Assembly (NCBI GenBank): GCA_030749075.1
Contig: JASMKR010000004.1
Location: 15,232-79,231, forward strand
Reading direction: 5' to 3'
Origin: Candidatus Thalassarchaeaceae archaeon
GTDB taxonomy: Archaea > Thermoplasmatota > Poseidoniia > Poseidoniales > Thalassarchaeaceae
DNA length: 64,000 bases
Positions 19,846 to 37,400 of the stretch are shown here, one piece after another. A program made the translations under genes and the position numbers. Within the stretch, counting starts at the first letter, position 1. The number at the start of each line of letters is the position of its first letter. The notes under the pieces are model-generated. The model made no database searches, was not told where the DNA came from, and worked only from the letters and a program-made list of their open reading frames with translations.

Positions 19846-19971
19846 GGTTTCAGCCACTGGAACAACGCGACCTCTTCGACGCGCTGCTCGCTTGTGCAGA
19901 CCTTCGGAAACAGTGGGGAACGGTTCATATACGCCTCTTCGGTCGGCGGGCCACCTTAGAAGGTGTACGTA

Positions 19972-21258
19972 ATGAGTTCACAATGGGAAGACAAGAAGAA
20001 GCCGCATCTGAACATCGTTTTCGTCGGTCACGTCGATCACGGCAAGTCAACCACAGTCGGAAGACTGCTCCTTGACAGCGGCCATATCGAAGCGCACGTC
20101 ATCGAGAAGTTCGAGAAGGAAGCATCCGAGCGGGGCAAGGCCGGCTTCGGCTTCGCCTATGTCATGGACGGCTTGAAGGAGGAGCGCGAGCGCGGAATCA
20201 CGATCGACGTCGCCCACAAGGAGTTCTTCACGCCCAACTACTACTTCACCGTCATCGACGCACCGGGCCACCGGGACTTCGTCAAGAACATGATTACCGG
20301 CACCAGCCAAGCCGATGCCGCGGTCCTGTGCGTTGCCGCCAACGACGGTGTCAACGCCCAGACCAAAGAACATGCCTTCCTAGCCCGAGTGCTCGGCGTC
20401 AAGCAATTGATTGTCAACGTCAACAAGATGGATATCAGCGGTGTGGACTGGTCGCAGGACAAGTACAACAGCGTCGTCGGTGAGGTTACGGAACTTCTGA
20501 CGATGGCCGGCTTCAACCCGGCAGATGCCCCTTTCATCCCCTGCAGCGCCTTTGATGGTGACAACGTCTACAACAAGAGCAGCAACACCCCGTGGTACAG
20601 CGGCCCTACTCTCTTCGAGGCCATTGATGCAATCCAGATGCCACCCAAGCCCACCGACAGGCCCCTGCGCCTGCCGATTCAGGACGTCTACAAGATTAGC
20701 GGAATCGGTACCGTTCCAGTCGGAAAGGTCGAGACCGGCGTTCTACACTCCGGCAAGACCGTCGTGTTCAACCCCAGCCAGAAGTCTGCTGAGGTGAAAA
20801 GCATCGAGATGCACCACACAATTCACGAGAAGGCTGAGCCTGGCGACAACGTCGGCTTCAACGTACGCGGCCTAGCCGCTCACGACATCCGCCGAGGAGA
20901 CGTCGCCGGGTACACGGATAACGAGCCTGCTTTCGTTCGCCACGACGAGACCTTCGTCGGGCAGATCCAACTCATGGATATCCCGAAGGCGATTGGCGCT
21001 GGCTACACCCCAGTCTTCCACGCCCACACATCACAGGTCGCTGTCCGGTTCGTTGAACTTCTAGAGAACTCCAAGACCAAGGAGGCCAACCCGCCGTTCC
21101 TCAAGACAGGTGATGCAGCCTTGGTCCGCTTCGCTCCGACCAAGCCCATGGCTATCGAGCAGATGGATGCCTTCCCAGAGCTTTCCCGCTTCGCGATTCG
21201 CGACATGGGCAAGACGGTGGCCGCAGGCGTCTGCATGAAGATCGAGAAGAAGGCTTGA
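19972..21258 (+). CDS. tuf: translation elongation factor EF-1alpha
   Basis: [26 protein letters not shown] and NKMD are present, with full-length EF-1alpha colinearity. GGTG lies 8 nt upstream and a TTCATATA TATA-like box about 40 nt upstream. Confidence 0.97.
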
Positions 21259-23999: not shown

Positions 24000-24084
24000 G
24001 CAGGTGTACCCGAGTGGTCAAAGGGGTCGGGCTCAAGATCCGATGCATAGTGCTTCGCAGGTTCGAATCCTGCCACCTGCACCA
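24000..24084 (+). tRNA. tRNA-Leu (anticodon CAA), class II long variable arm, CCA encoded
   Basis: Acceptor GCAGGTG/CACCTGC. D-arm CCCGAGTGGTCAAAGGGG. Anticodon stem-loop TCGGG-CTCAAGA-TCCGA. Long variable arm. T-arm GCAGG-TTCGAAT-CCTGC. Discriminator A followed by CCA. Confidence 0.85.
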
Positions 24085-24896: not shown

Positions 24897-27623
24897 ATGT
24901 CGGAGGATTCTGAGGAGTATCTAATCGTCGGCGACGATGAGCTAGATTCCACCCCCGATGAGGAGCAGCACCCTCTCAATATCTCCTCATTGCCTAAGCT
25001 CTCATCCCTCAGGCTGCCTCGGAGGCCTCGTTCGAAATCGGGGACCACGAGCGACCAACCCGCAGATGAGCCGCTGCCCGAGGAAACTTCGGAGATCTCG
25101 GACATCGGGCTGTCGCTGGACGGCGTGCACCGGTTCGACTGGACGATTCAGGGGATGGACTGCCCGGACTGCGCGATGAAGGCCACCCGGGCTGTGAACC
25201 GGCTTCCTGGAGTCGAGTCGTGCAGGATCTCAGTGGCAGACGGAACCGTGGAAATCTCCCAGGATATCGCCAGAGGCAGAGTGTCCAGGGCCTCGACAGT
25301 CTTGGGGAGCCTGGGGCACACTCCAAATGTGGGCTGGCTCCATGTCGTCGGGACCGACCCAGAGCGACTGGCCGCTGAGCAGGGTATCAGCAAAAAAATC
25401 CTCAAGGAGCAGATATTGGATGTCCCCAGCGTCCTGAACGTGCGGCTCAATCGAGGAATCGTGGAGGTCCAGAGCCTGTGGCTACGGGACGCTGATCTCA
25501 GGGAGGCTTCTGAGCAGAAGCTTGCAGGGATCCTCGGCCCCGGATTCAAGACGGCCCCATCTCGCAGAGATAGGTTCCGCAAAGACCAGAAACAGCTTCT
25601 CTCGGCTGCGCTGACAATCCCACTCATCATCATCGTGGCAGCAATGGAGGCGGCCCACAGCATCCCCGGGGCAGTCGCGGCGATAGTGGCACTTGTCGGA
25701 ATATTCCTCACCGGTCAGACGATGTACAAAGAGGCCCTAGCCAGCCTGCAGAACCGCATAGTCGGGTTCCAAGTCCTGACCACGCTCGCTGTGATAGGGG
25801 CCGTGGCATTGGGCGAATGGGTCGAGGCCCTGATGGTGGTCACTCTCGTTGCATTCGCCTCTCACTTGGAGAACAGGGCGCTTGTCCGGGCTAGGGATTC
25901 AATGCAAGGGGGTCTGGACCGACTTCCACGAACCGCCCGCATCCACACTCCAGAATCACCCGCAGAAGGGGGCGAGCGCGTCCTGAAGGTGATTCAGACG
26001 GGTTCCTCACTGACGCTGGCGAATTGCCACAGCAGTGACCTCGTCCCTGTCGAGGCACTGGAGGTCGGCGAACTCGTCGAGGTCCGCTCGGGGGAGACGG
26101 TTCCCGTCGATGGAACCATCGTCGAGGGCGTTGGCGCCATCGACCGCGCCCCTCTCACTGGGGAACCCATCCCCATATCGGTGAAGGAGGGAGACTCGGT
26201 GGAGGCGGGCCTGGTCTTGGTACGAGGTCCCTTGGTTATCAAGTCGGAAGCGAGCGGGGACGGCACCCGCCTTTCTAGCCTGATCGACCTGGTCAGGCTG
26301 TACAAGGACCAGCCAACCAGGACCCAGAGCGTCATCGAGAGATTCACGATGTTCTGGACCCCTCTCGTAGTATTCGCCGCCCCGATTATCGCCTTCTTGT
26401 TCACGGACTCGACCGAACAGGCGATCCTGACAACCCTGCTTCTATGGGTCGTCTCCTGCCCCTGCTCCCTGCTTCTCGCCTCCCCGGTTCCCCACGCAGC
26501 CGCCCTCACCTCCGCATCGTCCTTCGGCCTCATCGCCAGAGGAGGGGGCATATTGGAGGCGGCCGCCGAGATTAATCTGGCGATGCTGGATAAGACGGGT
26601 ACGCTGACCAGCGGGCAGCCCAGCCTCTCGGGAATAACTCCAGCCAGCGGAGAGAACGAGGATCGCGCCCTGCGAATAGCCGCGGGGCTTGAAATCCGCT
26701 CGAACCACCCCTATGCCAGAACAATCCTCCAGGCCGCCGACCAGCGCACGCTGAAGCCGATGAGCGTGTCCGGCATCGCCGACGGCGATGCTGGGGTATC
26801 GGGCCGATTGAGGGGCAAGCCGGTGATGCTGGGGCGTGCCGACTGGCTGCGGTCAGGGGGCGTCGAGATGCCAACCGATATCGAGGCCGCCCTCGCCTCG
26901 TCCCGAGAGGCCGGGCGCGGAGCGAGCGTCCTAGCAGTCGATGGAAAAGCCATCGCGGCCTTCGGCTTCTCTCACGATGACGCTAGGGAGGGAGTCCTGG
27001 AGGCCGTGGAGGCACTCAAGTCACAGGGCGTGAAGGTCGAGATCCTCAGTGGCGACGAGCAGGCCAGTGTCGAGGCCTTCGCGAAACTCATAGGGATTGA
27101 CCCAGCGATCTGCAGGGGTGGAGTGGACCCAGAAGGCAAGGCCGAGTATGTCTTAGAGAGGTCCTTGAGCGACCGCACCCTGATGGCCGGTGACGGCTTC
27201 AACGATGCGGGAGCTCTGGCGGCAGCGGACATCGGTGTTGCCGTTGGCAGCGGGGAGCAGGTCAACCTCGACGCCGCCGACGTGCTGATTCCCGGACGGG
27301 ATCCGCGAACCCTGCCCCGCTTGGTCACACTGGCCAAGCGGACTCGGCGCGTCGTTTATGCGAACATCGCAATCTCGGTCCTCGTCACCACCGCGCTGGT
27401 CTCCGCTGTTCTACTGGGCTTCGAGATGAAACTCGCCGCCGGCATCGCGCTCCACGAGACCAGTGCCATCCTGATTATTCTCAATGGGATGTGGGTATCC
27501 GGCTCGGGCGCGCAGAGGCTGTCCTCGCTGACCGAACTCGGTCGTGAACTAGTATCTGACCTTGCCGAGATAGTGGCCCTGCTGATGGGCAAGGGGCCGG
27601 GCGACACATCGTCGACCGCTTGA
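24897..27623 (+). CDS. heavy-metal-translocating P1B-type ATPase
   Basis: N-terminal HMA domain GMDCPDCAMKATRAVNRLPGV, TM CPC motif VVSCPCSLLLASP, DKTGTLT and GDGFNDAGALAAADIGVAVG. Metal specificity is not assignable by eye. Confidence 0.92.
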   Translation: MSEDSEEYLIVGDDELDSTPDEEQHPLNISSLPKLSSLRLPRRPRSKSGTTSDQPADEPLPEETSEISDIGLSLDGVHRFDWTIQGMDCPDCAMKATRAVNRLPGVESCRISVADGTVEISQDIARGRVSRASTVLGSLGHTPNVGWLHVVGTDPERLAAEQGISKKILKEQILDVPSVLNVRLNRGIVEVQSLWLRDADLREASEQKLAGILGPGFKTAPSRRDRFRKDQKQLLSAALTIPLIIIVAAMEAAHSIPGAVAAIVALVGIFLTGQTMYKEALASLQNRIVGFQVLTTLAVIGAVALGEWVEALMVVTLVAFASHLENRALVRARDSMQGGLDRLPRTARIHTPESPAEGGERVLKVIQTGSSLTLANCHSSDLVPVEALEVGELVEVRSGETVPVDGTIVEGVGAIDRAPLTGEPIPISVKEGDSVEAGLVLVRGPLVIKSEASGDGTRLSSLIDLVRLYKDQPTRTQSVIERFTMFWTPLVVFAAPIIAFLFTDSTEQAILTTLLLWVVSCPCSLLLASPVPHAAALTSASSFGLIARGGGILEAAAEINLAMLDKTGTLTSGQPSLSGITPASGENEDRALRIAAGLEIRSNHPYARTILQAADQRTLKPMSVSGIADGDAGVSGRLRGKPVMLGRADWLRSGGVEMPTDIEAALASSREAGRGASVLAVDGKAIAAFGFSHDDAREGVLEAVEALKSQGVKVEILSGDEQASVEAFAKLIGIDPAICRGGVDPEGKAEYVLERSLSDRTLMAGDGFNDAGALAAADIGVAVGSGEQVNLDAADVLIPGRDPRTLPRLVTLAKRTRRVVYANIAISVLVTTALVSAVLLGFEMKLAAGIALHETSAILIILNGMWVSGSGAQRLSSLTELGRELVSDLAEIVALLMGKGPGDTSSTA

Positions 27624-27627
27624 TTAA

Positions 27628-28041
27628 GTGGATGCAGTTGGGCCCGATGTGGCATCACCGCCCGAAGTCGAGTCCAAGCACGCCCCCCCATTGGTGGAAT
27701 GCCCCAATTGCGACCACATGCTGCCCCAAGGTATGGGAGAGGTGGAATGCGATATCTGCGGGGCCGTCTGCAGAGTGAGCCACGAGCCGACGATGGAGAC
27801 GCTCAAGGGCGAGTCGGTCCAGTGCCCACACTGCGCCACCGTGGTCGTGGCCGGCACCGAGAAGAGGCCGGTGGAGCTGACCTGCGCCTCGTGCTCGGGG
27901 ATTTTCGTCATCACGAGAAAGATAGTCAAGGTCGAGATAGGGTGCCCGGGCTGCCAGAGCCAGCTCAGGATTCGCCCGCGTCCGGGCAAGCGCGAGCTGA
28001 GATGCCCCTCCTGCTCCAATTCCTTCAACGTCACATTCTGA
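27628..28041 (+). CDS. triple zinc-ribbon protein (six CxxC pairs)
   Basis: GTG start 4 nt after the ATPase stop. Three ribbons: CPNC...CDIC, CPHC...CASC and CPGC...CPSC. Confidence 0.65.
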   Translation: MDAVGPDVASPPEVESKHAPPLVECPNCDHMLPQGMGEVECDICGAVCRVSHEPTMETLKGESVQCPHCATVVVAGTEKRPVELTCASCSGIFVITRKIVKVEIGCPGCQSQLRIRPRPGKRELRCPSCSNSFNVTF

Positions 28042-28092
28042 CGCTAGAAGGTCCGAACCCGGTGGTATCGGGGATTCTAGGGGTGGCCCCAG

Positions 28093-28752
28093 TCATCGCT
28101 CAGGCAGTCCCTGCCGTTCCATCCTGGCAAGGGGGCCTGTGGGTCGGAGAATGGTCTTGGCCGTGCAGTCCTTGGACTCGTGGCCTATCCTCTTGCATCT
28201 CGCGCAGATGACGTTCTTGAGCATTAGATGCCTGGTGTTCCTCCTCTTGGCATCCTCTGCAGTCATCTCCCTTTCGGGCTTGATTACCGTCTTCGAGCCG
28301 TCTGGGTGGACTTTGATTACCGTACCGTCCTTCTTCTTGGTGCGGCCCACGACCTTCTTCCCCTTCGACCTCCTCTTGGGCTTGGGCTTCGGTCGATAGA
28401 CCCACGACTTCTTGGTGATGGTGACCCCATCGACGGTGGTCTTGTTGCGGCAGCTGGTACGGATATGGCCCGGCCTTCCGCACCTGCCGCAGGTTACTTT
28501 CCTCTTCGTCTGGATGTATGGCCCCCCTCGCACCTTGCTGGCGCCATGCTTCTTGATCATGCGCTCAGCGATTTTCTTCTCATCGGATTTCTTCACGTTA
28601 CTGAGGTAACTGACGACCCGCTTCGGCTTGTGCTTTTTCGTCCACTTGGCCTCCTTGCCCAAGACGTGCTGCTTCAGCCTCCTCTCGCCGTCGGCAGTCC
28701 TCCCGACGTAGTAGTTGCCGCCCTCACATTCGAGAACGTATACGTCCACCAT
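28093..28752 (-). CDS. GIY-YIG nuclease-domain protein with two CCHC zinc knuckles and Lys-rich linkers
   Basis: VYVLECEGGNYYVGRTADGERRLKQH...KW is a GIY-YIG N-terminal motif. CGRCGRPGHIRTSC and CARCKRIGHESKDC both fit C-x2-C-x4-H-x4-C. The track ORF extends to 28794; I prefer ATG 28752 (MVDVYVLE). Confidence 0.7.
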   Translation of the reverse strand: MVDVYVLECEGGNYYVGRTADGERRLKQHVLGKEAKWTKKHKPKRVVSYLSNVKKSDEKKIAERMIKKHGASKVRGGPYIQTKRKVTCGRCGRPGHIRTSCRNKTTVDGVTITKKSWVYRPKPKPKRRSKGKKVVGRTKKKDGTVIKVHPDGSKTVIKPEREMTAEDAKRRNTRHLMLKNVICARCKRIGHESKDCTAKTILRPTGPLARMERQGLPER

Positions 28753-28869
28753 GGTATTCCGAGGGAAGCCACTCCGGATTATATTGACCCTCATCGGTAA
28801 GCAATGGGATTGTAGGACTGAGGTCAGATGAGGGGCTCCGCTTCTTGATCTGTCTGAAATTACTCTCAG

Positions 28870-30084
28870 ATGAGGCCGAACTCACGCTGGTTCGCCACTT
28901 CAATAGTCCTTCGAAACCGTGTTTATCGCCCGATTTGGACCCTCCGCTCTCAAATACCCCGAAACGCGCGTAGACTTGGGGATGGGCACTTGAGTGAGAG
29001 CAAGTCACCGGATGCGGACAATGCCGAGGGCATCGACGAACTCGATGCGATTAGGGCCCAGCACGCACGCTCCTCCTCTGGGACGCCTCACTCTTCGAGG
29101 GCACGGGAGCGTTTGGATGAGGAGTCGAACCTGCGATCTGGGATACGAAGGGAGCGCAGGATGCGTATCGCGAAGATGACCGAACGGGTCTCGGGGATGC
29201 ACGGTGCGATGAGGAAGGCCAACGAGATACTCTTCGAGGAGCAGCTCCAGCAGATCGAGGCCGATCTCAGGGACGAGCTCGAGGAGGAGCTCGAGAGGCT
29301 GGAGACGGAGGCGCTGGAGCGCGAGGAGCGTCTGCTGCGCGAGGAGATGCTGCACAGGCTGCGCCGCGAGGAGAACAGGCTAAGGGAACAGCTCGACTTG
29401 GAGAGGGACCGCAGGGTGGAGGCTCATTCCACCAAGGTGCGCGACCGGCTCCGAGAGGAGATGGAGGTCGAGTTCTCTAGGAGGAGGGCCTTCCTCGAGG
29501 AGCGCTTGGAGCTCGAAGCCTCACAGAGCATCGAGCGCATGGAGCGAAGGGTCCAGATGGACCTGCGCGAGGCGATGGAGTCCCAGGTTCACAGGAAGTT
29601 GGATGCCCATCGCCTGGACCAGGAGATCCAGATGCGCAACAGAATCGCCAAGAAGCGAAGGAAGCACGAGTCGAAGTTAGAGAAGCAGCTCGAGAGCGAG
29701 CGCGAATCGCTGGAGAAGGAGATGACCTCAGACATCGATGAGAGGACCAAGGCGCTGGAGGAGGAGGCCGAGCGGGCAGCGCTGGGCGAACTCGATCGCA
29801 GGTTCCGTACCGAGCGCGAGACCATGGAAGCGGCTCTGGCGCTACGACGACAGGAACTCGCCCTGGAGCGCGAGGTCGAGATGGAGCAACGAGTAGCCGA
29901 CTTTGTCAAGCAGCGGGAGTCAGAGATGATGTCCAACCTCGAGAAGCAGCTCTCTAAGCGCTCCGACCTGTCGAAGAAGGAGGTCGGGGAGATGCTCAAG
30001 GCCATGGAGTCCGAGATCAGGGTCAAGATGGAGGCAGCCCTGCTGGACGCCCGACAGAGCGTTATGGAGAAATCCAACTCATAG
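28870..30084 (+). CDS. Glu/Arg-rich coiled-coil protein (start uncertain)
   Basis: About 300 aa of uninterrupted charged heptad-like sequence, e.g. EELERLETEALEREERLLREEMLHRLRREENRLREQLDLERDRR. No TM helix and no enzymatic motif. Later in-frame starts (TTG about 28992, ATG about 29161) are possible. Confidence 0.6.
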   Translation: MRPNSRWFATSIVLRNRVYRPIWTLRSQIPRNARRLGDGHLSESKSPDADNAEGIDELDAIRAQHARSSSGTPHSSRARERLDEESNLRSGIRRERRMRIAKMTERVSGMHGAMRKANEILFEEQLQQIEADLRDELEEELERLETEALEREERLLREEMLHRLRREENRLREQLDLERDRRVEAHSTKVRDRLREEMEVEFSRRRAFLEERLELEASQSIERMERRVQMDLREAMESQVHRKLDAHRLDQEIQMRNRIAKKRRKHESKLEKQLESERESLEKEMTSDIDERTKALEEEAERAALGELDRRFRTERETMEAALALRRQELALEREVEMEQRVADFVKQRESEMMSNLEKQLSKRSDLSKKEVGEMLKAMESEIRVKMEAALLDARQSVMEKSNS

Positions 30085-30144
30085 GCTAATGCCGTTCCAA
30101 TCGCTTACCGATTCGTTCAAAGGTAAGACTCAGTGCGACGGACG

Positions 30145-30198
30145 CCCCGGAGAAACCGGGGGAAGAGGTCCTCCGGGGACCGGGTTTTGTTGTTATTT
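30145..30198 (+). terminator. two GC hairpins followed by a T-rich tract between convergent genes
   Basis: ccccgg-agaaa-ccgggg (30145-30161) and ggtcc-tccgg-ggacc (30167-30181), followed by gggttttgttgttatttcc. Lies between the coiled-coil gene stop (30084) and the stop of the minus-strand parA-like gene (30241). Confidence 0.35.
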
Positions 30199-30240
30199 CC
30201 CGGCCCAGGCCCTTCTCCCACATAGAGAGCAGTCGCCAGC

Positions 30241-31143
30241 CTATGCTTCGTCAATCGCTCTTATCCTAGCATCTGCCTCCTTGGCGAAATCCCAGTATGC
30301 CATACTCGCGGGGTTGGATTTGGTCGGCTTCTGCGCGATTACGATAGGAGCTCCCTCCAAGGGCGACTCTGCGATTGCCACCGAGCGCGGTATCTGCGTC
30401 TCGAAAACCCTGTCACCGAAGTGCTTGCGCGCCTGCTCGGTCACTGCCTCACACAACTTGCTCCTCGACTGCACCATTGTAAGCAGGATTCCGAATAGCC
30501 CGAGGTCCGGGTTCACCGACCTCTGGACCTCCTTGATGGCGTTCATCAGTTGCCCCATGCCCTCCAAGGCGTAGAACTCGGCTTGGATCGGTATCAGGAC
30601 CCACTCGGCTGCGGCTAGGGCATTGATGGTCAGCAGCCCCAGTGACGCTGGTGTGTCGATGATGATTACATCGAAGGTCCCCAAGGCCTCCCGCAGGGCG
30701 AGCCTGAGTCGATTCTCCCTGCCCACCCTCGTGGCTAGGTCGACCTCTATGCCGGACAGGTCGAGGTCGGCGGGCAGGACCCAGAGGTTACGTATGGCGA
30801 TGTGCTTCGGGGGGCCGCGCTTTCTGTCCGGGTTGTGGCTCTTCCATGCCGCGTACATCGACCTCGTGAGGATCTCGGGCCCCAGAATGCAGTCGTCCAG
30901 CGCGAGCGAGTCGTCATCCAACCCCTTGGAGAAAAGCTCGTCCATGGTGGGCCCCACGTTTCGCTTGTCCACCCCGAAGGTAGTGGCTACGTTCCCCTTC
31001 GGGTCCATGTCGACCAGTAGCACCCTCCTGCGGCGGATTCCGTATTCGGTGCTTCCCATCGCGAGGGCGGAGGCGAGGTTGACCGCGGTAGTGGTACGCG
31101 AGCAGCCGCCCTTGTGGTTGACGCAGGCGATGACTATGGCCAC
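30241..31143 (-). CDS. ParA/Soj-like protein with a non-canonical Walker A (KGGCSRTT)
   Basis: GTG start. (M)AIVIACVNHKGGCSRTTTAVNLASALA, VLLVDMDPKGN, VIIIDTPASLG and VLIPIQAEFYALEG are colinear with the ParA at 7637. I checked the nucleotides: tgc tcg cgt acc sits where ggc aag acc is expected. Confidence 0.85.
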   Translation of the reverse strand: MAIVIACVNHKGGCSRTTTAVNLASALAMGSTEYGIRRRRVLLVDMDPKGNVATTFGVDKRNVGPTMDELFSKGLDDDSLALDDCILGPEILTRSMYAAWKSHNPDRKRGPPKHIAIRNLWVLPADLDLSGIEVDLATRVGRENRLRLALREALGTFDVIIIDTPASLGLLTINALAAAEWVLIPIQAEFYALEGMGQLMNAIKEVQRSVNPDLGLFGILLTMVQSRSKLCEAVTEQARKHFGDRVFETQIPRSVAIAESPLEGAPIVIAQKPTKSNPASMAYWDFAKEADARIRAIDEA

Positions 31144-31183
31144 GCCACGGAGTCCGCGATGCGGTTAATTGGGGTTGTCCAGG

Positions 31184-32170
31184 CTACTGGATCACCGGGA
31201 CGACTACTTCACCGAGGATCTTGTTCACGATGCGCTTCCCCGTGACGCCCCTGATCTTGGACTCGGGCTTGAGCACTATCCTGTGGCTGATGACGTCTAG
31301 GGACACGCCCTTGACGTCGTCGGGAATCACGTAGTCGCGCCCGTCGATCGCCGCCGAGGCCCTGGCCGCCTTGAACAGAGACTGGCTGGCTCGGGGTGAG
31401 GCCCCCGCCTCGATGCGCGGATCTGCGCGGGTGCGCTGCACGAGCTCGACGATGTAGCCCATAATCGCGGGATCGACGTGAACGGTCTCGAGCGCCCGCT
31501 GCATCGCGACCACCTTCCGTGGGCCGACCACCTGCTCGACGTCGTAGTCGTCCTTGCCTCGGAGCTTCCTGCGCTGGAGGATTGCCTTCTCCTCCTCTCT
31601 GGTGGGGTAGCCCATGCTCATCTTCATCAGGAACCGATCCATCTGAGCCTCGGGAAGCGGGTAGGTGCCCTCCTGCTCTATCGGGTTCTGGGTCGCCATG
31701 GTGCAGAATGGGGCGGGCAGTTTGTGCGTGATGCCCTCGATGGTGACCTGCTTCTCCTCCATGGCCTCCAGAAGGGCTGCTTGAGTCTTGGGCGGTGCCC
31801 GGTTGATTTCATCGGCCAGCAGGACGTTGGTGAAAAGGGGCCCGAAACGGGGCTTGAACTCGCCGGTCTTCTGGTCGAACATATAGGTCCCGATGATATC
31901 GGCGGGAAGCAGGTCGGGGGTGAACTGGACTCGCTTGAACTTGCATCCGAGCGCTCTGGCGAAGGTGTTTGCCATCAGCGTCTTGGCTAGGCCGGGGTTG
32001 TCCTCGATGAGGATGTTCCCGTTGGACAGGACTCCAATGGTGACCTTGCGAATGTTCTCCGGCTTCCCTATGATGACCTTGGCCACCTCGCTCATGAGGT
32101 TGTTCGAGTGACCGGAGACTGACCTGATGAGATCCTTGGAGCTAACTGTGCCGCCTTGAGCGATTGTCAT
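31184..32170 (-). CDS. moxR: MoxR-family AAA+ ATPase
   Basis: GNILIEDNPGLAKTLMANTFARALGCKFKRVQFTPDLLPADIIGT...LLADEINRAPPKTQAALLEAMEE is the canonical MoxR pattern. Confidence 0.9.
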   Translation of the reverse strand: MTIAQGGTVSSKDLIRSVSGHSNNLMSEVAKVIIGKPENIRKVTIGVLSNGNILIEDNPGLAKTLMANTFARALGCKFKRVQFTPDLLPADIIGTYMFDQKTGEFKPRFGPLFTNVLLADEINRAPPKTQAALLEAMEEKQVTIEGITHKLPAPFCTMATQNPIEQEGTYPLPEAQMDRFLMKMSMGYPTREEEKAILQRRKLRGKDDYDVEQVVGPRKVVAMQRALETVHVDPAIMGYIVELVQRTRADPRIEAGASPRASQSLFKAARASAAIDGRDYVIPDDVKGVSLDVISHRIVLKPESKIRGVTGKRIVNKILGEVVVPVIQ

Positions 32171-37322: not shown

Positions 37323-37400
37323 TGGTGGGCATGACAGGATTTGAACCTGCGACCTCCCGGTTATCAGCCGGGTGCTCCAGCCAAACTAAGCTACACGCCC
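37323..37400 (-). tRNA. tRNA-Ile (anticodon GAU), CCA encoded
   Basis: The reverse complement reads GGGCGTGTAGCTTAGTTTGGCTGGAGCACCCGGCTGATAACCGGGAGGTCGCAGGTTCAAATCCTGTCATGCCCACCA. Acceptor GGGCGTG/CATGCCC has one G-T pair. Anticodon loop CTGATAA. T-loop TTCAAAT. Confidence 0.88.

What the first reader, a model, noticed from the sequence alone, without database searches (positions are those of the whole stretch)
28093..28794. GIY-YIG nuclease domain fused to two retroviral/eukaryotic-type CCHC zinc knuckles
Seen in sequence: the N-terminus VYVLECEGGNYYVGRTADGERRLKQH..KW fits the GIY-x(9-11)-YxG...R...H start of GIY-YIG domains. Downstream, CGRCGRPGHIRTSC and CARCKRIGHESKDC both fit C-x2-C-x4-H-x4-C exactly. 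They are separated by Lys/Arg-rich linkers (KPKPKRRSKGKK). Established knowledge: zf-CCHC knuckles are single-strand nucleic-acid-binding modules typical of retroelement Gag and eukaryotic RNA-binding proteins, and I believe they are uncommon in archaea. GIY-YIG domains occur in homing endonucleases, UvrC, SLX1 and restriction or defence nucleases. Inference: a small nucleic-acid-targeting nuclease, possibly of viral or mobile origin or a stand-alone defence or repair factor. It sits alone between oppositely oriented genes.
Basis: partly seen in the sequence, partly recalled or inferred. Interest (0 to 1): 0.65.

Follow-up and report, generated by a model that had tools for sequence, protein, structure and literature searches.

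The report
Zinc-knuckle GIY-YIG nuclease gene cassette
A marine archaeon carries a small, very basic DNA-cutting enzyme (GIY-YIG type) fused to two zinc knuckles; it was inserted as a single-gene cassette and belongs to a large, unstudied family otherwise found in giant viruses and protists.

Summary
The minus-strand ORF 28093-28794 (probable true start 28752, 219 aa, net charge +41) encodes a GIY-YIG domain (Pfam 4.8e-10). Its best structural relatives are the UPF0213/Slx1-type proteins 1zg2 and 1ywl. Two exact C-x2-C-x4-H-x4-C knuckles follow. Tyr5, Tyr15, Arg25, His29 and Glu58 are all present, and the knuckle spacing is invariant in homologues. The host is a Marine Group II (Poseidoniales/Thalassarchaeaceae) archaeon. 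The family is large: 10,423 clusters, usually a GIY-YIG domain plus 1-10 knuckles. It occurs mainly in giant viruses and protists, with a separate archaeal branch in which a tentatively HNH-like domain can replace GIY-YIG. At this locus the gene is a ~0.87 kb single-gene insertion. Nineteen related metagenomic loci have the empty site, with the Zn-ribbon gene directly followed by the coiled-coil gene. The insertion predates the split from the SP208 lineage (dS 0.34, as for the neighbours) and is under purifying selection (dN/dS 0.13). Codon usage matches the host. Most likely it is a resident free-standing, selfish-type nuclease that is tethered to DNA by the knuckles. A repair role like that of Slx1 is the main rival. 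No defence-system signature and no expression data were found. It is a new variant of a known kind, of moderate interest.

The parts
28093..28752 (-). Probable true coding sequence: 219 aa plus stop, a GIY-YIG domain followed by two CCHC knuckles; 36 Lys, 25 Arg, net charge about +41
   Evidence: ORF. Start inferred from the homologues' N-termini. Composition. dN/dS 0.129 against L001.
28753..28794 (-). In-frame upstream extension of the ORF (14 codons), probably untranslated 5' region
   Evidence: Most homologues shown start at MVD/MGQ or have Val there, suggesting GTG. The AATATAAT element at 28778-28785 is not conserved in L001, so the promoter call is weak.
28507..28752 (-). GIY-YIG nuclease domain (residues 1-82) with Tyr5, Tyr15, Arg25, His29, Glu58 and the invariant V74-R75-G76 motif
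   Evidence: Pfam 4.8e-10. PDB hits 1zg2 at 4.8e-11 to 7.8e-12 and 1ywl at 5.4e-10. Invariant columns. AF2 gives beta-beta-alpha-alpha-beta-alpha. BFVD fold hits down to 2e-10.
28390..28491 (-). Zinc knuckle 1 (C88-x2-C91-x4-H96-x4-C101) with its conserved extension RNKTTVDGVTITKKSWVYRP; the most constrained part of the protein
   Evidence: Invariant C88, C91, G92, R93, G95, H96, C101, D108, G109, W117, P121. dN/dS 0.03. Extension motif shared by archaeal, giant-virus and unlabelled members.
28207..28389 (-). Lys/Arg-rich linker including a small beta-meander insert (KKKDGTVIKVHPDGSKTVIK, about 28279-28356) and a helix
   Evidence: Weak Tcp10_C / CPAP G-box matches. AF2 strands 136-139, 145-148 and 154-157. 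The insert occurs only in the closest relatives P0001-P0004.
28165..28206 (-). Zinc knuckle 2 (C183-x2-C186-x4-H191-x4-C196)
   Evidence: Pfam zf-CCHC best stretch at residues 196-211 of the 233-aa ORF. Conserved in the archaeal homologues that carry this module.
28096..28164 (-). C-terminal tail TAKTILRPTGPLARMERQGLPER. The archaeal-clade motif GPLAxMxRxGLPKR is predicted to be a short helix.
   Evidence: Shared by GIY-YIG and HNH-like archaeal proteins and absent from giant-virus copies. AF2 helix 207-214.
28042..28908 (.). The ~0.87 kb single-gene insert, defined relative to the ancestral Zn-ribbon / coiled-coil intergenic spacer
   Evidence: 19 metagenomic loci have the empty site. Homology ends at the Zn-ribbon stop codon and resumes at CTTCGAAACCG, 28909. 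Contigs of ~87-90% relatives stop matching at 28039, and one joins 28039 to 28909.
28040..28059 (.). Left arm of an imperfect inverted repeat at the insert's edge (significance uncertain). It overlaps a hairpin-like repeat (28044-28056 / 28068-28080) between the convergent genes.
   Evidence: the repeat finder I1 (14 of 20 complementary) and I7. Poorly conserved in L094 and L001.
28889..28908 (.). Right arm of the same imperfect inverted repeat, ending at the right edge of the insert
   Evidence: 21 comparable pairs occur in this 1 kb, so chance is not excluded.
27628..28041 (+). Flanking Zn-ribbon protein gene (137 aa), the left border of the insertion site
   Evidence: Pfam Zn_ribbon_4 at 2.4e-10. 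Conserved next to the P-type ATPase gene in 32 loci.
28948..30084 (+). Flanking coiled-coil protein gene with its conserved upstream motif TCTCAAATACCCCGAAA (28948-28964); probable start TTG at 28990. This is the right border of the insertion site.
   Evidence: Alignment of empty and filled sites. No Pfam hit.

Best explanation
SHOWN. This is a real, selection-maintained gene of a Marine Group II (Poseidoniales/Thalassarchaeaceae) archaeon. It encodes a 219-aa, extremely basic protein. The N-terminus is a minimal GIY-YIG nuclease domain of the UPF0213/Slx1 type with a complete catalytic set (Tyr5, Tyr15, Arg25, His29, Glu58). Two CCHC zinc knuckles follow, joined by Lys/Arg-rich linkers. The protein belongs to a large, experimentally unstudied family (a GIY-YIG domain plus 1-10 knuckles) that is abundant in giant viruses and protists and has a distinct archaeal branch. 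At this locus the gene and its short flanks form a ~0.87 kb single-gene insertion into an otherwise conserved intergenic spacer. The insertion predates the split of the window and SP208 lineages and has since been inherited vertically under purifying selection.

INFERRED. The knuckles and polybasic linkers tether the protein to DNA with little sequence specificity, probably favouring single-stranded or distorted DNA. The GIY-YIG domain then nicks or cleaves nearby with one metal ion. Biologically it is a free-standing, selfish-type nuclease gene with a lifestyle like that of a homing endonuclease gene. It entered as a cassette and is now a long-term resident.
For: Domains and catalytic residues. 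In one search Arg25 and His29 align with I-TevI Arg27 and His31 and with the RRxxxH motif of UPF0213/SLX1. Fold.

Host.

Family size and architecture: 10,423 clusters at E<=1e-3, and among the best 146 nearly all have the first knuckle at about residue 103. Relatives occur in 68 viral loci, mostly giant-virus MAGs, some with tandem copies; in eukaryotic contigs; and in named giant-virus proteins.

Insertion: 19 empty-site loci against 1 filled locus plus the window, with sharp borders at 28041 and 28909.

Selfish-type behaviour of the archaeal family: the same knuckle module is fused to either a GIY-YIG or a tentatively HNH-like domain, with variable C-terminal Zn modules. Paralogues sit next to resolvase, HNH and DUF4379 genes. 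One copy is N-truncated (P0042). Some lineages carry substitutions at catalytic positions, R25G and E58V. Positions differ between genomes.

Resident status: dS 0.34 equals that of the neighbours, dN/dS is 0.129, GC3 and codon choice match the host, and depth is contiguous in the window's own population.
Against: The catalytic domain is of the UPF0213/Slx1 type, not the I-TevI/Seg homing type. No sequence-specific dsDNA-binding module (NUMOD or HTH) is present, so a classical homing mechanism is unproven. The gene is fixed in its own population, and no presence/absence polymorphism was seen at 95-100% identity. Purifying selection on both domains fits a host-beneficial function equally well. 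The archaeal knuckles lack the aromatic residues that retroviral knuckles use to bind unpaired bases, so a preference for ssDNA is an assumption. No nuclease activity, zinc binding or expression has been shown (searches were uninformative). The inverted repeat at the insert ends is weak.
Confidence: 0.5

Rival explanations
1. Host-beneficial DNA repair or recombination nuclease. After horizontal acquisition the protein works like Slx1 or bacterial UPF0213 proteins, as a structure-selective endonuclease for flaps, stalled forks or junctions. The knuckles would play the part of Slx1's C-terminal zinc domain or recruit the enzyme to ssDNA.
For: The best sequence matches are UPF0213 proteins (1zg2 at 7.8e-12, 1ywl at 5.4e-10), then SLX1 (7wme at 0.024). 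The shared G-A/S-x-W-T-K-K-x-K-P motif is also seen in the SLX1 homologue. A zinc module directly follows the nuclease domain at a fixed distance in hundreds of members. dN/dS is 0.13, and dS and codon usage match the host. The gene is single-copy in the window.
Against: The gene is absent from the same site in about a dozen related lineages, and related copies lie at varied places. The sister population has Gly at the catalytic Arg position. The nuclease domain is less constrained than the knuckles (dN/dS 0.20 against 0.03-0.08). Domain swapping with a tentatively HNH-like domain is unusual for a housekeeping repair enzyme. There is no SLX4-like partner and no RING finger.
Confidence: 0.27
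2. Defence or anti-mobile-element nuclease. A stand-alone effector attacks foreign (viral) DNA or replication intermediates and is placed in flexible genome regions.
For: Paralogues lie in island-like regions with an SLFN-like helicase, HNH nucleases, DUF4379/DUF723 proteins and a resolvase. The gene sits at a rearrangement hot spot next to a variable surface-protein island in L001. The family is expanded in giant viruses.
Against: There are no PADLOC hits for this protein, for relatives or for its neighbours. No partner sensor or immunity gene is present: the window neighbours are a Zn-ribbon protein, a coiled-coil protein, ParA and MoxR, all of them conserved in genomes that lack the gene. 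Nothing suggests self/non-self discrimination.
Confidence: 0.1
3. Mainly non-catalytic nucleic-acid-binding protein. It would act as a chromatin-like protein or a nucleic-acid chaperone, with the GIY-YIG domain serving as a binding or scaffold module.
For: Net charge is +41 and 28% of residues are Lys or Arg. The knuckle modules are more constrained than the nuclease domain. R25G is found in the abundant sister cluster and E58V in two variants. Some relatives replace the knuckles with long Ser/Thr/Lys/Arg tails (P0031, P0038).
Against: The window protein keeps every catalytic residue. Tyr5, Tyr15, His29 and Glu58 are invariant, and Arg25 is nearly invariant (90% or more), across 54 diverse members. 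Purifying selection still acts on the nuclease domain (dN/dS 0.20).
Confidence: 0.08
4. Spurious ORF, or a chance match in a GC-rich genome.
For: GC-rich archaeal DNA has many long overlapping ORFs.
Against: Three Pfam domains score above their cut-offs. There are 46 close homologues and thousands of distant ones. dN/dS is 0.13. The CCHC pattern is about 40-fold over expectation.
Confidence: 0.01

Closest known systems
UPF0213 / YhbQ-type stand-alone GIY-YIG proteins (BH0048, PDB 1zg2; EF2693, PDB 1ywl), placed in the Slx1 cluster by Dunin-Horkawicz et al. 2006 (PMC1564403)
   Same: These are the closest sequence relatives of the nuclease domain (E 7.8e-12 and 5.4e-10). They share the minimal ~85-residue domain, the Y..YxG..RRxxxH..G.GA.xT motif string, and the G-G-P-Y segment after the last helix.
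   Different: The bacterial proteins have no zinc knuckles or basic tails. Their biochemical function is also essentially unknown. The window family has its own invariant V-R-G-G motif.
Eukaryotic SLX1 (the structure-specific endonuclease subunit, GIY-YIG plus a C-terminal RING/PHD zinc domain, which works with SLX4)
   Same: The N-terminal GIY-YIG domain is of the same lineage and is followed by a zinc-binding module. There are weak but specific profile matches (7wme 0.024, 6seh 0.11, 7cq2 0.17, 4xlg 0.37), and the motif after the catalytic His is shared.
   Different: The zinc module here is a pair of CCHC knuckles, not a RING finger. No SLX4-like partner is evident. The protein is much smaller. 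It is not an orthologue.
Giant-virus 'GIY-YIG nuclease' / 'CCHC-type domain-containing' proteins, e.g. Klosneuvirus A0A1V0SKB8, Orpheovirus A0A2I2L4G4 ('GIY-YIG nuclease with Zinc finger domain'), and Terrestrivirus and Yasminevirus paralogues
   Same: The architecture is the same: a GIY-YIG domain with the first knuckle at about residue 103, and the knuckle extension C-Y-A-K-T-x-V/I-D/N-G-x2-I/L. Fold matches reach E 2e-10 to 1e-7 at 22-32% identity.
   Different: The viral and eukaryotic copies have aromatic residues at knuckle positions 2 and 10, often more knuckles and C2H2-like fingers, an Asn in N-V-R-G-G, and occur as multi-copy or tandem genes. The archaeal copies form their own cluster with a specific linker and C-terminal tail. 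None has been characterised experimentally, as far as the searched literature shows.
Free-standing GIY-YIG/HNH homing endonuclease genes of phages (I-TevI, the Seg and Mob proteins of T4-like phages)
   Same: They are single-gene cassettes inserted between conserved genes, present or absent among relatives, and modular (a nuclease domain plus linker plus a DNA-binding module, with GIY-YIG and HNH used interchangeably). The same catalytic residues are present.
   Different: The catalytic domain here is nearer to UPF0213/Slx1 than to I-TevI (E 0.05). There are no NUMOD or helix-turn-helix modules. Target-specific cleavage and homing have not been shown. This copy has been stable over dS ~0.34.
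Retroviral/retroelement nucleocapsid zinc knuckles (HIV-1 NCp7, Copia and Ty3 Gag; Pfam zf-CCHC and zf-CCHC_5)
   Same: The C-x2-C-x4-H-x4-C spacing is exact, with Gly after the second Cys and before His and basic flanks.
   Different: The archaeal knuckles have Gly/Ala and Asn/Glu/Ile where nucleocapsid proteins have the aromatic residues that stack on unpaired bases. They also carry a family-specific C-terminal extension.
Plant EFFECTOR OF TRANSCRIPTION factors (GIY-YIG domain plus zinc- and DNA-binding ET repeats; PMC6585611)
   Same: A GIY-YIG nicking domain is combined with repeated small zinc-binding DNA-binding modules (abstract seen).
   Different: The zinc repeats are of a different type (ET repeats). 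The domain order and GIY-YIG lineage of ET factors were not checked here. They are plant-specific regulators.

Membership tests
GIY-YIG nuclease superfamily (Pfam PF01541) | Profile match above the curated threshold | tested here: met
   40 bits against a cut-off of 22.6, E 4.8e-10, residues 18-86 of the 233-aa ORF.
GIY-YIG nuclease superfamily (Pfam PF01541) | The two motif tyrosines (GIY ... YIG) on the N-terminal beta-hairpin | tested here: met
   V-Y5-V and Y-Y15-V-G17. Y5, Y15 and G17 are invariant in 14, 40 and 54 sequences.
GIY-YIG nuclease superfamily (Pfam PF01541) | Catalytic Arg about 10 residues after YIG, with His at +4 | tested here: met
   R25 and H29 align with I-TevI R27 and H31 and with the RRxxxH motif of 1zg2 and 7wme. 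R25 is replaced by Gly in the sister cluster P0003/P0193.
GIY-YIG nuclease superfamily (Pfam PF01541) | Metal-binding Glu on the helix after beta-3 | tested here: met
   E58 is the only invariant acidic residue. It lies at the start of helix 55-69 in the model and aligns with a Glu of 1ywl. Its spatial position in the active site was not checked.
GIY-YIG nuclease superfamily (Pfam PF01541) | Three-stranded sheet flanked by helices (the GIY-YIG fold) | tested here: met
   AF2 gives beta-beta-alpha-alpha-beta-alpha with pLDDT 77. Top PDB fold hits are 1zg2, 1ywl, UvrC and I-TevI but are weak (E 0.013 or worse). BFVD hits to viral GIY-YIG proteins reach E 2e-10.
GIY-YIG nuclease superfamily (Pfam PF01541) | Metal-dependent DNA cleavage | not testable with these tools
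   Needs a biochemical assay.
Slx1 / UPF0213 lineage of GIY-YIG (as defined in PMC1564403) | Closer to Slx1/UPF0213 than to the UvrC, I-TevI or restriction-enzyme lineages | tested here: met
   Profile against PDB: 1zg2 7.8e-12, 1ywl 5.4e-10, SLX1 0.024-0.44, I-TevI 0.05, UvrC 0.5.
Slx1 / UPF0213 lineage of GIY-YIG (as defined in PMC1564403) | No conserved C-terminal Asn | tested here: inconclusive
   The window protein has Lys73 (K-V-R-G-G). However, the family consensus is N-V-R-G-G, with the Asn 15 residues after E58. That spacing equals I-TevI E75/N90 as I recall it, so the family may retain the Asn.
SLX1 proper (eukaryotic SLX1-SLX4 nuclease) | C-terminal RING/PHD zinc finger and an SLX4 partner | tested here: not met
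   There is no RING match; the PHD match has E 0.21, below its cut-off. The zinc modules are CCHC knuckles. No partner gene is present at the locus.
zf-CCHC zinc knuckle (Pfam PF00098 / PF14787) | C-x2-C-x4-H-x4-C spacing and a profile match above threshold | tested here: met
   There are two exact matches. PF00098 scores 24.1 against 20.8 and PF14787 scores 27.5 against 27.
zf-CCHC zinc knuckle (Pfam PF00098 / PF14787) | Ligand spacing conserved in homologues | tested here: met
   C88, C91, H96 and C101 are invariant in 14 sequences. 588 knuckles in relatives share the spacing and the extension.
zf-CCHC zinc knuckle (Pfam PF00098 / PF14787) | Aromatic residues at knuckle positions 2 and 10 that bind unpaired bases, as in HIV-1 NC (from established knowledge) | tested here: not met
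   The window knuckles have Gly/Ile and Ala/Glu. Archaeal copies have position 2 as G45/A23 and position 10 as N34/E24 (percent). Giant-virus copies have Y/F at 64% and F/Y at 79%.
zf-CCHC zinc knuckle (Pfam PF00098 / PF14787) | Zinc binding and nucleic-acid binding | not testable with these tools
   Needs metal analysis and binding assays.
Free-standing homing endonuclease genes | Single-gene cassette between conserved genes, present or absent among related genomes | tested here: met
   19 empty sites against 2 filled ones, with sharp borders.
Free-standing homing endonuclease genes | Sequence-tolerant but specific dsDNA-binding module (NUMOD or HTH) and an I-TevI-type catalytic domain | tested here: not met
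   No such Pfam or NCBIfam match was found. TIGR01453 scored E 0.32 at 11 bits. No PHROG GIY-YIG homing family was hit.
Free-standing homing endonuclease genes | Cleavage of the cognate empty allele and gene conversion | not testable with these tools
   Needs an in vitro cleavage assay on the empty-site sequence and a genetic test.
Known anti-phage defence systems (PADLOC-DB 2.0) | Match to a defence-system protein model | tested here: not met
   No hits for the protein, for two relatives or for both neighbours at E<=0.01.

The most novel reading that the evidence does not exclude
These proteins would be a previously unrecognised class of mobile, free-standing nuclease genes. A GIY-YIG or HNH head would sit on an 'extended zinc-knuckle' targeting module, and the genes would circulate among marine protists, their giant viruses and Marine Group II archaea. 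They would insert as sub-kilobase single-gene elements, possibly bounded by short inverted repeats. Their nuclease would be guided by the knuckles to single-stranded or structured DNA rather than to a long recognition sequence. That would be a new mode of nuclease-gene mobility and a concrete case of gene flow between domains of life.
Probability: 0.15. Interest if true: 0.75.

Novelty: new variant of a known kind. Interest (0 to 1): 0.45.

Why it matters
GIY-YIG nucleases and CCHC knuckles are each well known, but I found no study of the fusion, although it forms a family of thousands of clusters. The searched literature contains no paper on it. This window gives a clean natural experiment: a dated single-gene insertion with many empty sites, so target preference can be tested directly. 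It also shows a module typical of eukaryotes and giant viruses fixed in an abundant marine archaeal lineage. That bears on gene flow between plankton, their viruses and Marine Group II archaea. If the knuckles confer structure- or ssDNA-directed cutting, the small size (219 aa) could also make the enzyme useful as a tool.

Tried and rejected
1. Expression. No RNA run holds the sequence, and four metatranscriptomes from the same studies laid nothing on 27000-31200, flanking genes included. The result is uninformative.

2. Defence role. PADLOC gave no hits.

3. Phage homing families. PHROGs gave no GIY-YIG family for the protein.

4. Promoter. An AATATAAT element lies 30 nt upstream of ATG 28752, but it is not conserved in L001/L084, so I do not rely on it.

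5. Whole-protein fold search against PDB. It was dominated by noise because the model is multi-domain and of low confidence. The domain-only model gave the right families but weak E-values.

6. Terminal inverted repeat. The 14/20 repeat sits exactly at the insert ends, but 21 comparable pairs occur in 1 kb and it is poorly conserved in L094 and L001. I left it as unexplained.

7. HNH assignment of the alternative N-domain (P0040 group). Support is limited to PHROG HNH hits at E ~1e-3, a Pfam HNH hit at 0.03 in 1 of 7 members, and the C..C / W-H-H / N / C..H-H pattern. PDB gave nothing. I treat the assignment as tentative.

8. Linking the rearranged loci L095-L103 to the surface-protein island of L001. 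No similarity was found.

9. Looking for resolvase, DUF4379, HNH or SLFN relatives in the window. None was found.

10. Direction of transfer. The neighbour-joining tree on 82 columns has very short internal branches, and most sequences carry no taxon label. It shows only that the archaeal copies cluster together.

11. A 10-nt inverted match (CTGAGAGTAA) between the L107 spacer and the window insert was judged compatible with chance.
Full report
1. THE OBSERVATION

Pfam places a GIY-YIG domain at residues 18-86 of the ORF (E 4.8e-10, 40 bits against a cut-off of 22.6). It also finds two CCHC knuckles: zf-CCHC_5 at 27.5 bits against 27, and zf-CCHC at 24.1 bits against 20.8. The pattern C-x2-C-x4-H-x4-C occurs three times in the six-frame translation of the whole window, against 0.08 expected from composition, and two of the three are in this ORF.

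Most homologues shown begin at the internal Met (MVDVYVLE...) or have Val at that position, which suggests a GTG start. The real product is therefore most likely 219 aa, encoded by 28093-28752. I use that numbering below. The protein has 36 Lys, 25 Arg and a net charge of about +41.

2. THE DOMAINS

GIY-YIG domain. The best relatives with solved structures are the UPF0213 proteins BH0048 (1zg2, E 4.8e-11 for the single sequence and 7.8e-12 for a 54-sequence domain profile) and EF2693 (1ywl, 5.4e-10). SLX1 homologues follow (7wme 0.024; 6seh, 7cq2 and 4xlg at 0.1-0.4), then I-TevI (0.05), T4 endonuclease II (0.1) and UvrC (0.5). Dunin-Horkawicz et al. 2006 (PMC1564403) place 1zg2 and 1ywl in the Slx1 cluster.

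Those alignments put Arg25 and His29 on I-TevI Arg27 and His31 and on the RRxxxH motif of UPF0213/SLX1. Across 54 diverse family members Tyr5, Tyr15, Gly17, His29, Thr38, Glu58 and Val74-Arg75-Gly76 are invariant, and Arg25 is nearly so.

An AlphaFold model of residues 1-125 (pLDDT 77) has the order beta-beta-alpha-alpha-beta-alpha. Its fold matches in the PDB are the right families but weak (1zg2 at E 0.013). Matches to predicted giant-virus GIY-YIG proteins are strong (2e-10).

One caveat on the lineage. The Slx1 cluster is said to lack the C-terminal Asn of the UvrC/I-TevI lineage. The window protein has Lys73, but the family consensus is N-V-R-G-G, with the Asn 15 residues after Glu58. I therefore score that criterion as inconclusive.

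Knuckles. Cys88, Cys91, His96 and Cys101 are invariant in the 14 closest full-length homologues. All 588 knuckles collected from relatives share the spacing. The second refutation test is passed as well.

The knuckles are nevertheless a special variant. In archaeal, giant-virus and unlabelled members alike, the last Cys is followed by Y-A-K-T-x-V/I-D/N-G-x2-I/L. The archaeal copies have Gly/Ala and Asn/Glu/Ile at knuckle positions 2 and 10. Giant-virus copies have aromatic residues there (64% and 79%), as do retroviral nucleocapsids according to established knowledge. So 'retroviral-type' holds for the metal ligands but not for the base-stacking residues.

3. HOST AND NEIGHBOURHOOD

The closest genomic match is a 'Methanobacteriota archaeon' MAG, SP208 (L001, 83% protein identity). 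Other hits are Candidatus Poseidoniales and 'Euryarchaeota UBA' MAGs. Cluster members are named Candidatus Thalassarchaeaceae archaeon in NCBI and annotated as 'hypothetical protein' or 'GIY-YIG nuclease family protein'. The sequence is present in many seawater metagenomes.

The neighbours are a P-type ATPase gene and a Zn-ribbon protein gene on one side. On the other side are genes for a coiled-coil protein, ParA, MoxR, a 595-aa ORF whose syntenic counterparts in L082 and L084 carry IF-2 domains, and a 140-aa ORF that probably encodes NDK. GC3 (0.795) and synonymous codon choice equal those of the neighbours. The lower overall GC comes from the Lys-rich first codon position.

4. THE GENE IS AN OLD SINGLE-GENE INSERTION

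I scanned metagenome contigs with the flanking Zn-ribbon protein and obtained 33 loci.

- One locus (L094, 92% Zn-ribbon identity) has the gene in the same place as the window.
- Nineteen loci, about a dozen distinct lineages with 61-85% Zn-ribbon identity, have the Zn-ribbon stop codon followed after about 100 nt by the coiled-coil gene.
- Several close relatives (L097-L100, L102, L103) have other genes after the Zn-ribbon gene.

Alignment of filled and empty sites shows that homology ends at the Zn-ribbon stop (28041) and resumes at CTTCGAAACCG (28909). That point is just upstream of a motif conserved in all lineages, TCTCAAATACCCCGAAA (28948-28964), which I read as the promoter of the coiled-coil gene. 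Independently, contigs from populations that are 87-90% identical stop matching the window exactly at 28039 in four sequencing runs, and one contig joins 28039 to 28909.

In the window's own population the region is contiguous at even depth (30.9x in X1, 17.7x in X8). SP208 (L001) and a Tara contig (L084) carry the gene next to the same coiled-coil, ParA, MoxR and IF-2 block, but with a 1,500-aa surface protein on the other side. Synteny with the window breaks about 10 nt inside the left edge of the insert.

Between the window and L001 the gene has dS 0.34, the same as its four neighbours (0.33-0.38), and dN/dS 0.129 (neighbours 0.07-0.11). By domain, dN/dS is 0.20 for GIY-YIG, 0.03 for knuckle 1 plus its extension, and 0.08 for knuckle 2 plus the tail (a single pair, so indicative only).

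The conclusion is that a cassette of about 0.87 kb entered the intergenic spacer before these lineages split. It has been kept by selection since then.

5. THE FAMILY

A profile search of 1.84 billion cluster representatives found 10,423 proteins at E<=1e-3 and 406 at E<=1e-30. Among the best 146 non-query representatives, nearly all have an N-terminal GIY-YIG domain followed by 1-10 CCHC knuckles, with the first at about residue 103.

- Sixty-eight IMG/VR loci, mostly giant-virus MAGs, encode relatives (24-42% identity), some in tandem copies (four in L026).
- Two top representatives lie on eukaryotic contigs, next to kinesin, SNAP, CAP-Gly, formin and ZW10 genes.
- UniProt already names giant-virus members 'GIY-YIG nuclease', 'GIY-YIG nuclease with Zinc finger domain' or 'CCHC-type domain-containing protein', with several paralogues per virus.

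The archaeal proteins cluster together in a rough neighbour-joining tree with no giant-virus sequence among them. The deep branches are very short, and I draw no conclusion about the direction of transfer.

The archaeal branch has its own features: the linker D-G-x2-I-T-x-K-S-W-x-Y-R-P and the C-terminal tail G-P-L-A-x-M-x-R-x-G-L-P-K-R. It is also combinatorial. The same knuckle module follows either of two GIY-YIG subtypes or a different N-domain with a C..C / W-H-H / N / C..H-H pattern. That alternative domain is tentatively HNH: PHROG hits at E ~1e-3, a Pfam HNH hit at 0.03 in one of seven members, and nothing in PDB. The second knuckle can be replaced by other Cys/His modules.

Archaeal paralogues lie in quite different places:
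- after NDK in L082, whose Zn-ribbon / coiled-coil site is empty;
- beside a serine recombinase, DUF4379/DUF723 zinc-ribbon proteins and HNH nucleases in L085 and L091-L093;
- beside an SLFN-like helicase in L078.

None of those genes is in the window. One copy is N-truncated (P0042). The abundant sister cluster (P0003/P0193, seen on about 100 contigs) has Gly at the catalytic Arg position, and two variants have Val at Glu58.

6. WHAT IT MOST LIKELY IS AND DOES

Shown: the domain composition; the intact catalytic set in this copy; purifying selection; cassette-like insertion; family-level modularity; varied genomic placement; and multi-copy status in giant viruses.

Inferred: the knuckles and polybasic linkers tether the enzyme to DNA with low sequence specificity, and the GIY-YIG domain nicks or cuts nearby. 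The gene's history is that of a free-standing, selfish-type nuclease gene that became a long-term resident (confidence about 0.5).

The main rival is that it now serves the host as an Slx1-like, structure-selective repair or recombination nuclease (about 0.27). This fits the lineage of the domain, the fixed zinc module behind it, and the purifying selection. It fits less well with the patchy and variable distribution, the tentative HNH swap, and the R25G lineage. The two readings are not mutually exclusive over evolutionary time.

A defence role has only circumstantial support and no PADLOC match (about 0.1). A mainly non-catalytic DNA- or RNA-binding role is suggested by the charge, by the stronger constraint on the knuckles and by R25G. 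It is countered by the invariance of the catalytic residues across the family (about 0.08).

7. COMPARISON WITH WHAT IS KNOWN, AND NOVELTY

The protein works most like a modular GIY-YIG nuclease, that is, a catalytic head plus a zinc-containing targeting part, as in I-TevI, SLX1 or the plant ET factors.

- It is a member of the GIY-YIG superfamily and, by sequence, of the UPF0213/Slx1 lineage.
- It is not an SLX1 orthologue, because it has no RING finger and no partner.
- It is not a classical I-TevI-type homing endonuclease, because it has no NUMOD or HTH module.

The architecture is already catalogued by automatic annotation in giant viruses. I found no paper that describes or tests it, in archaea or elsewhere. 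I rate it a new variant of a known kind.

The points of interest are the distribution across domains of life, the clean insertion with many empty sites, and the testable question of what an 'extended knuckle' without aromatic residues recognises.

8. LIMITS

- There is no expression evidence.
- There is no biochemical evidence.
- The phylogeny is rough and largely unlabelled.
- dN/dS comes from one genome pair.
- The inverted repeat at the insert ends (28040-28059 / 28889-28908, 14 of 20) may be chance.

Noticed in passing
L091 2239-5177; L092 104-3042; L093 1036-3974; L085 7741-12673: A recurrent cassette in Marine Group II contigs consists of a serine recombinase (Resolvase, 268 aa), a type-2 GIY-YIG-knuckle gene and a DUF4379 zinc-ribbon repeat protein, with HNH nuclease genes nearby. 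In L085 the order and orientation differ and the GIY-YIG gene is N-truncated. The resolvases are 88% identical. It looks like an undescribed mobile or invertible element.
   Followed up: partly
window 28948-29004: The motif TCTCAAATACCCCGAAA is conserved upstream of the coiled-coil gene in all lineages examined, followed by GGGGATGGGCAC and TTG AGT GAG AGC AAG. The coiled-coil protein probably starts at TTG 28990 (LSESKSPD...), not at the ORF's ATG 28870. The motif is probably its archaeal promoter.
   Followed up: partly
window 28507 (between residues 82 and 83 of the 219-aa protein): The window protein and P0001 lack an 18-residue helix (EMTQAEMRALKKKAGAKA in L001; consensus KMTxxElRaLEKKvG). 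The other archaeal homologues examined, of both types, have it between the GIY-YIG domain and knuckle 1. This is an in-frame deletion.
   Followed up: partly
window 28279-28356 (residues 133-158): A small repeat, DGTVIKVHP / DGSKTVIKP, is predicted as a three-stranded beta-meander. It gives weak matches to Tcp10_C and the CPAP G-box (4ld1, rmsd 0.6 A over 23 residues). It is present only in the closest relatives (P0001-P0004).
   Followed up: no
P0003/P0193 cluster (L001 8001-8714, L084 10001-10714); P0210, P0211: The widely sampled sister population has Gly at the catalytic Arg25 position (ERGLKQH) and GG in place of ER at residues 63-64. Two variants of the P0005 cluster have Val at Glu58. 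Either nuclease activity is being lost in some lineages, or Arg24 compensates.
   Followed up: partly
L001 8835-13337 (-): A 1,500-aa secreted or surface protein, very rich in Asp/Gly/Trp, carries many D-x-D-G-D-G-x-x-D repeats of the thrombospondin type 3 / calcium-binding kind. It abuts the 3' end of the GIY-YIG gene where the window has the Zn-ribbon and ATPase genes. This is a rearrangement or island boundary.
   Followed up: no
L098 5207-6307 (+), and L095-L103 generally: In the lineages closest to the window by Zn-ribbon identity (85-92%), the ATPase / Zn-ribbon pair is followed by unrelated genes, including an ORF with a FEN1/XPG-like N-terminus, instead of the coiled-coil / ParA block. 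The region just downstream of the Zn-ribbon gene is a hot spot for rearrangement.
   Followed up: partly
L008 7722-8402 (Marinicaulis sp. MAG, 168 kb contig); L005 1635-2279 ('Bacteroidetes' MAG, 3.6 kb contig, coverage 0.09): Giant-virus-like GIY-YIG-knuckle genes occur in contigs binned as bacteria. L005 clusters with giant-virus copies and is probably a binning error. L008 lies on a long alphaproteobacterial contig and could be a real transfer.
   Followed up: no
L088 6014-7840 (P0047); L087 10001-13104 (P0050 and neighbours): Eukaryotic contigs carry very long members (608 aa with 10 knuckles; 566 aa with two GIY-YIG domains and 5 knuckles) and adjacent paralogues. The family is therefore expanded in some protist genomes too.
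   Followed up: no
L082 3401-4072: In a genome whose Zn-ribbon / coiled-coil site is empty, a type-2 paralogue (37% identical) lies only about 6 kb away in the same syntenic block, between the NDK and aminotransferase genes. This may be coincidence or a regional preference for insertion.
   Followed up: no
window 20543 (-), frame 0: The third CCHC-pattern match in the window, [14 protein letters not shown], lies in a Cys/Arg-rich out-of-frame translation overlapped by the long plus-strand ORF 19963-21258. I regard it as chance.
   Followed up: no
window 24000-24084 (+) and 37323-37400 (-): The window contains tRNA-Leu(CAA) and tRNA-Ile(GAT) genes. Neither is adjacent to the insert, so there is no sign of integration at a tRNA gene.
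   Followed up: no
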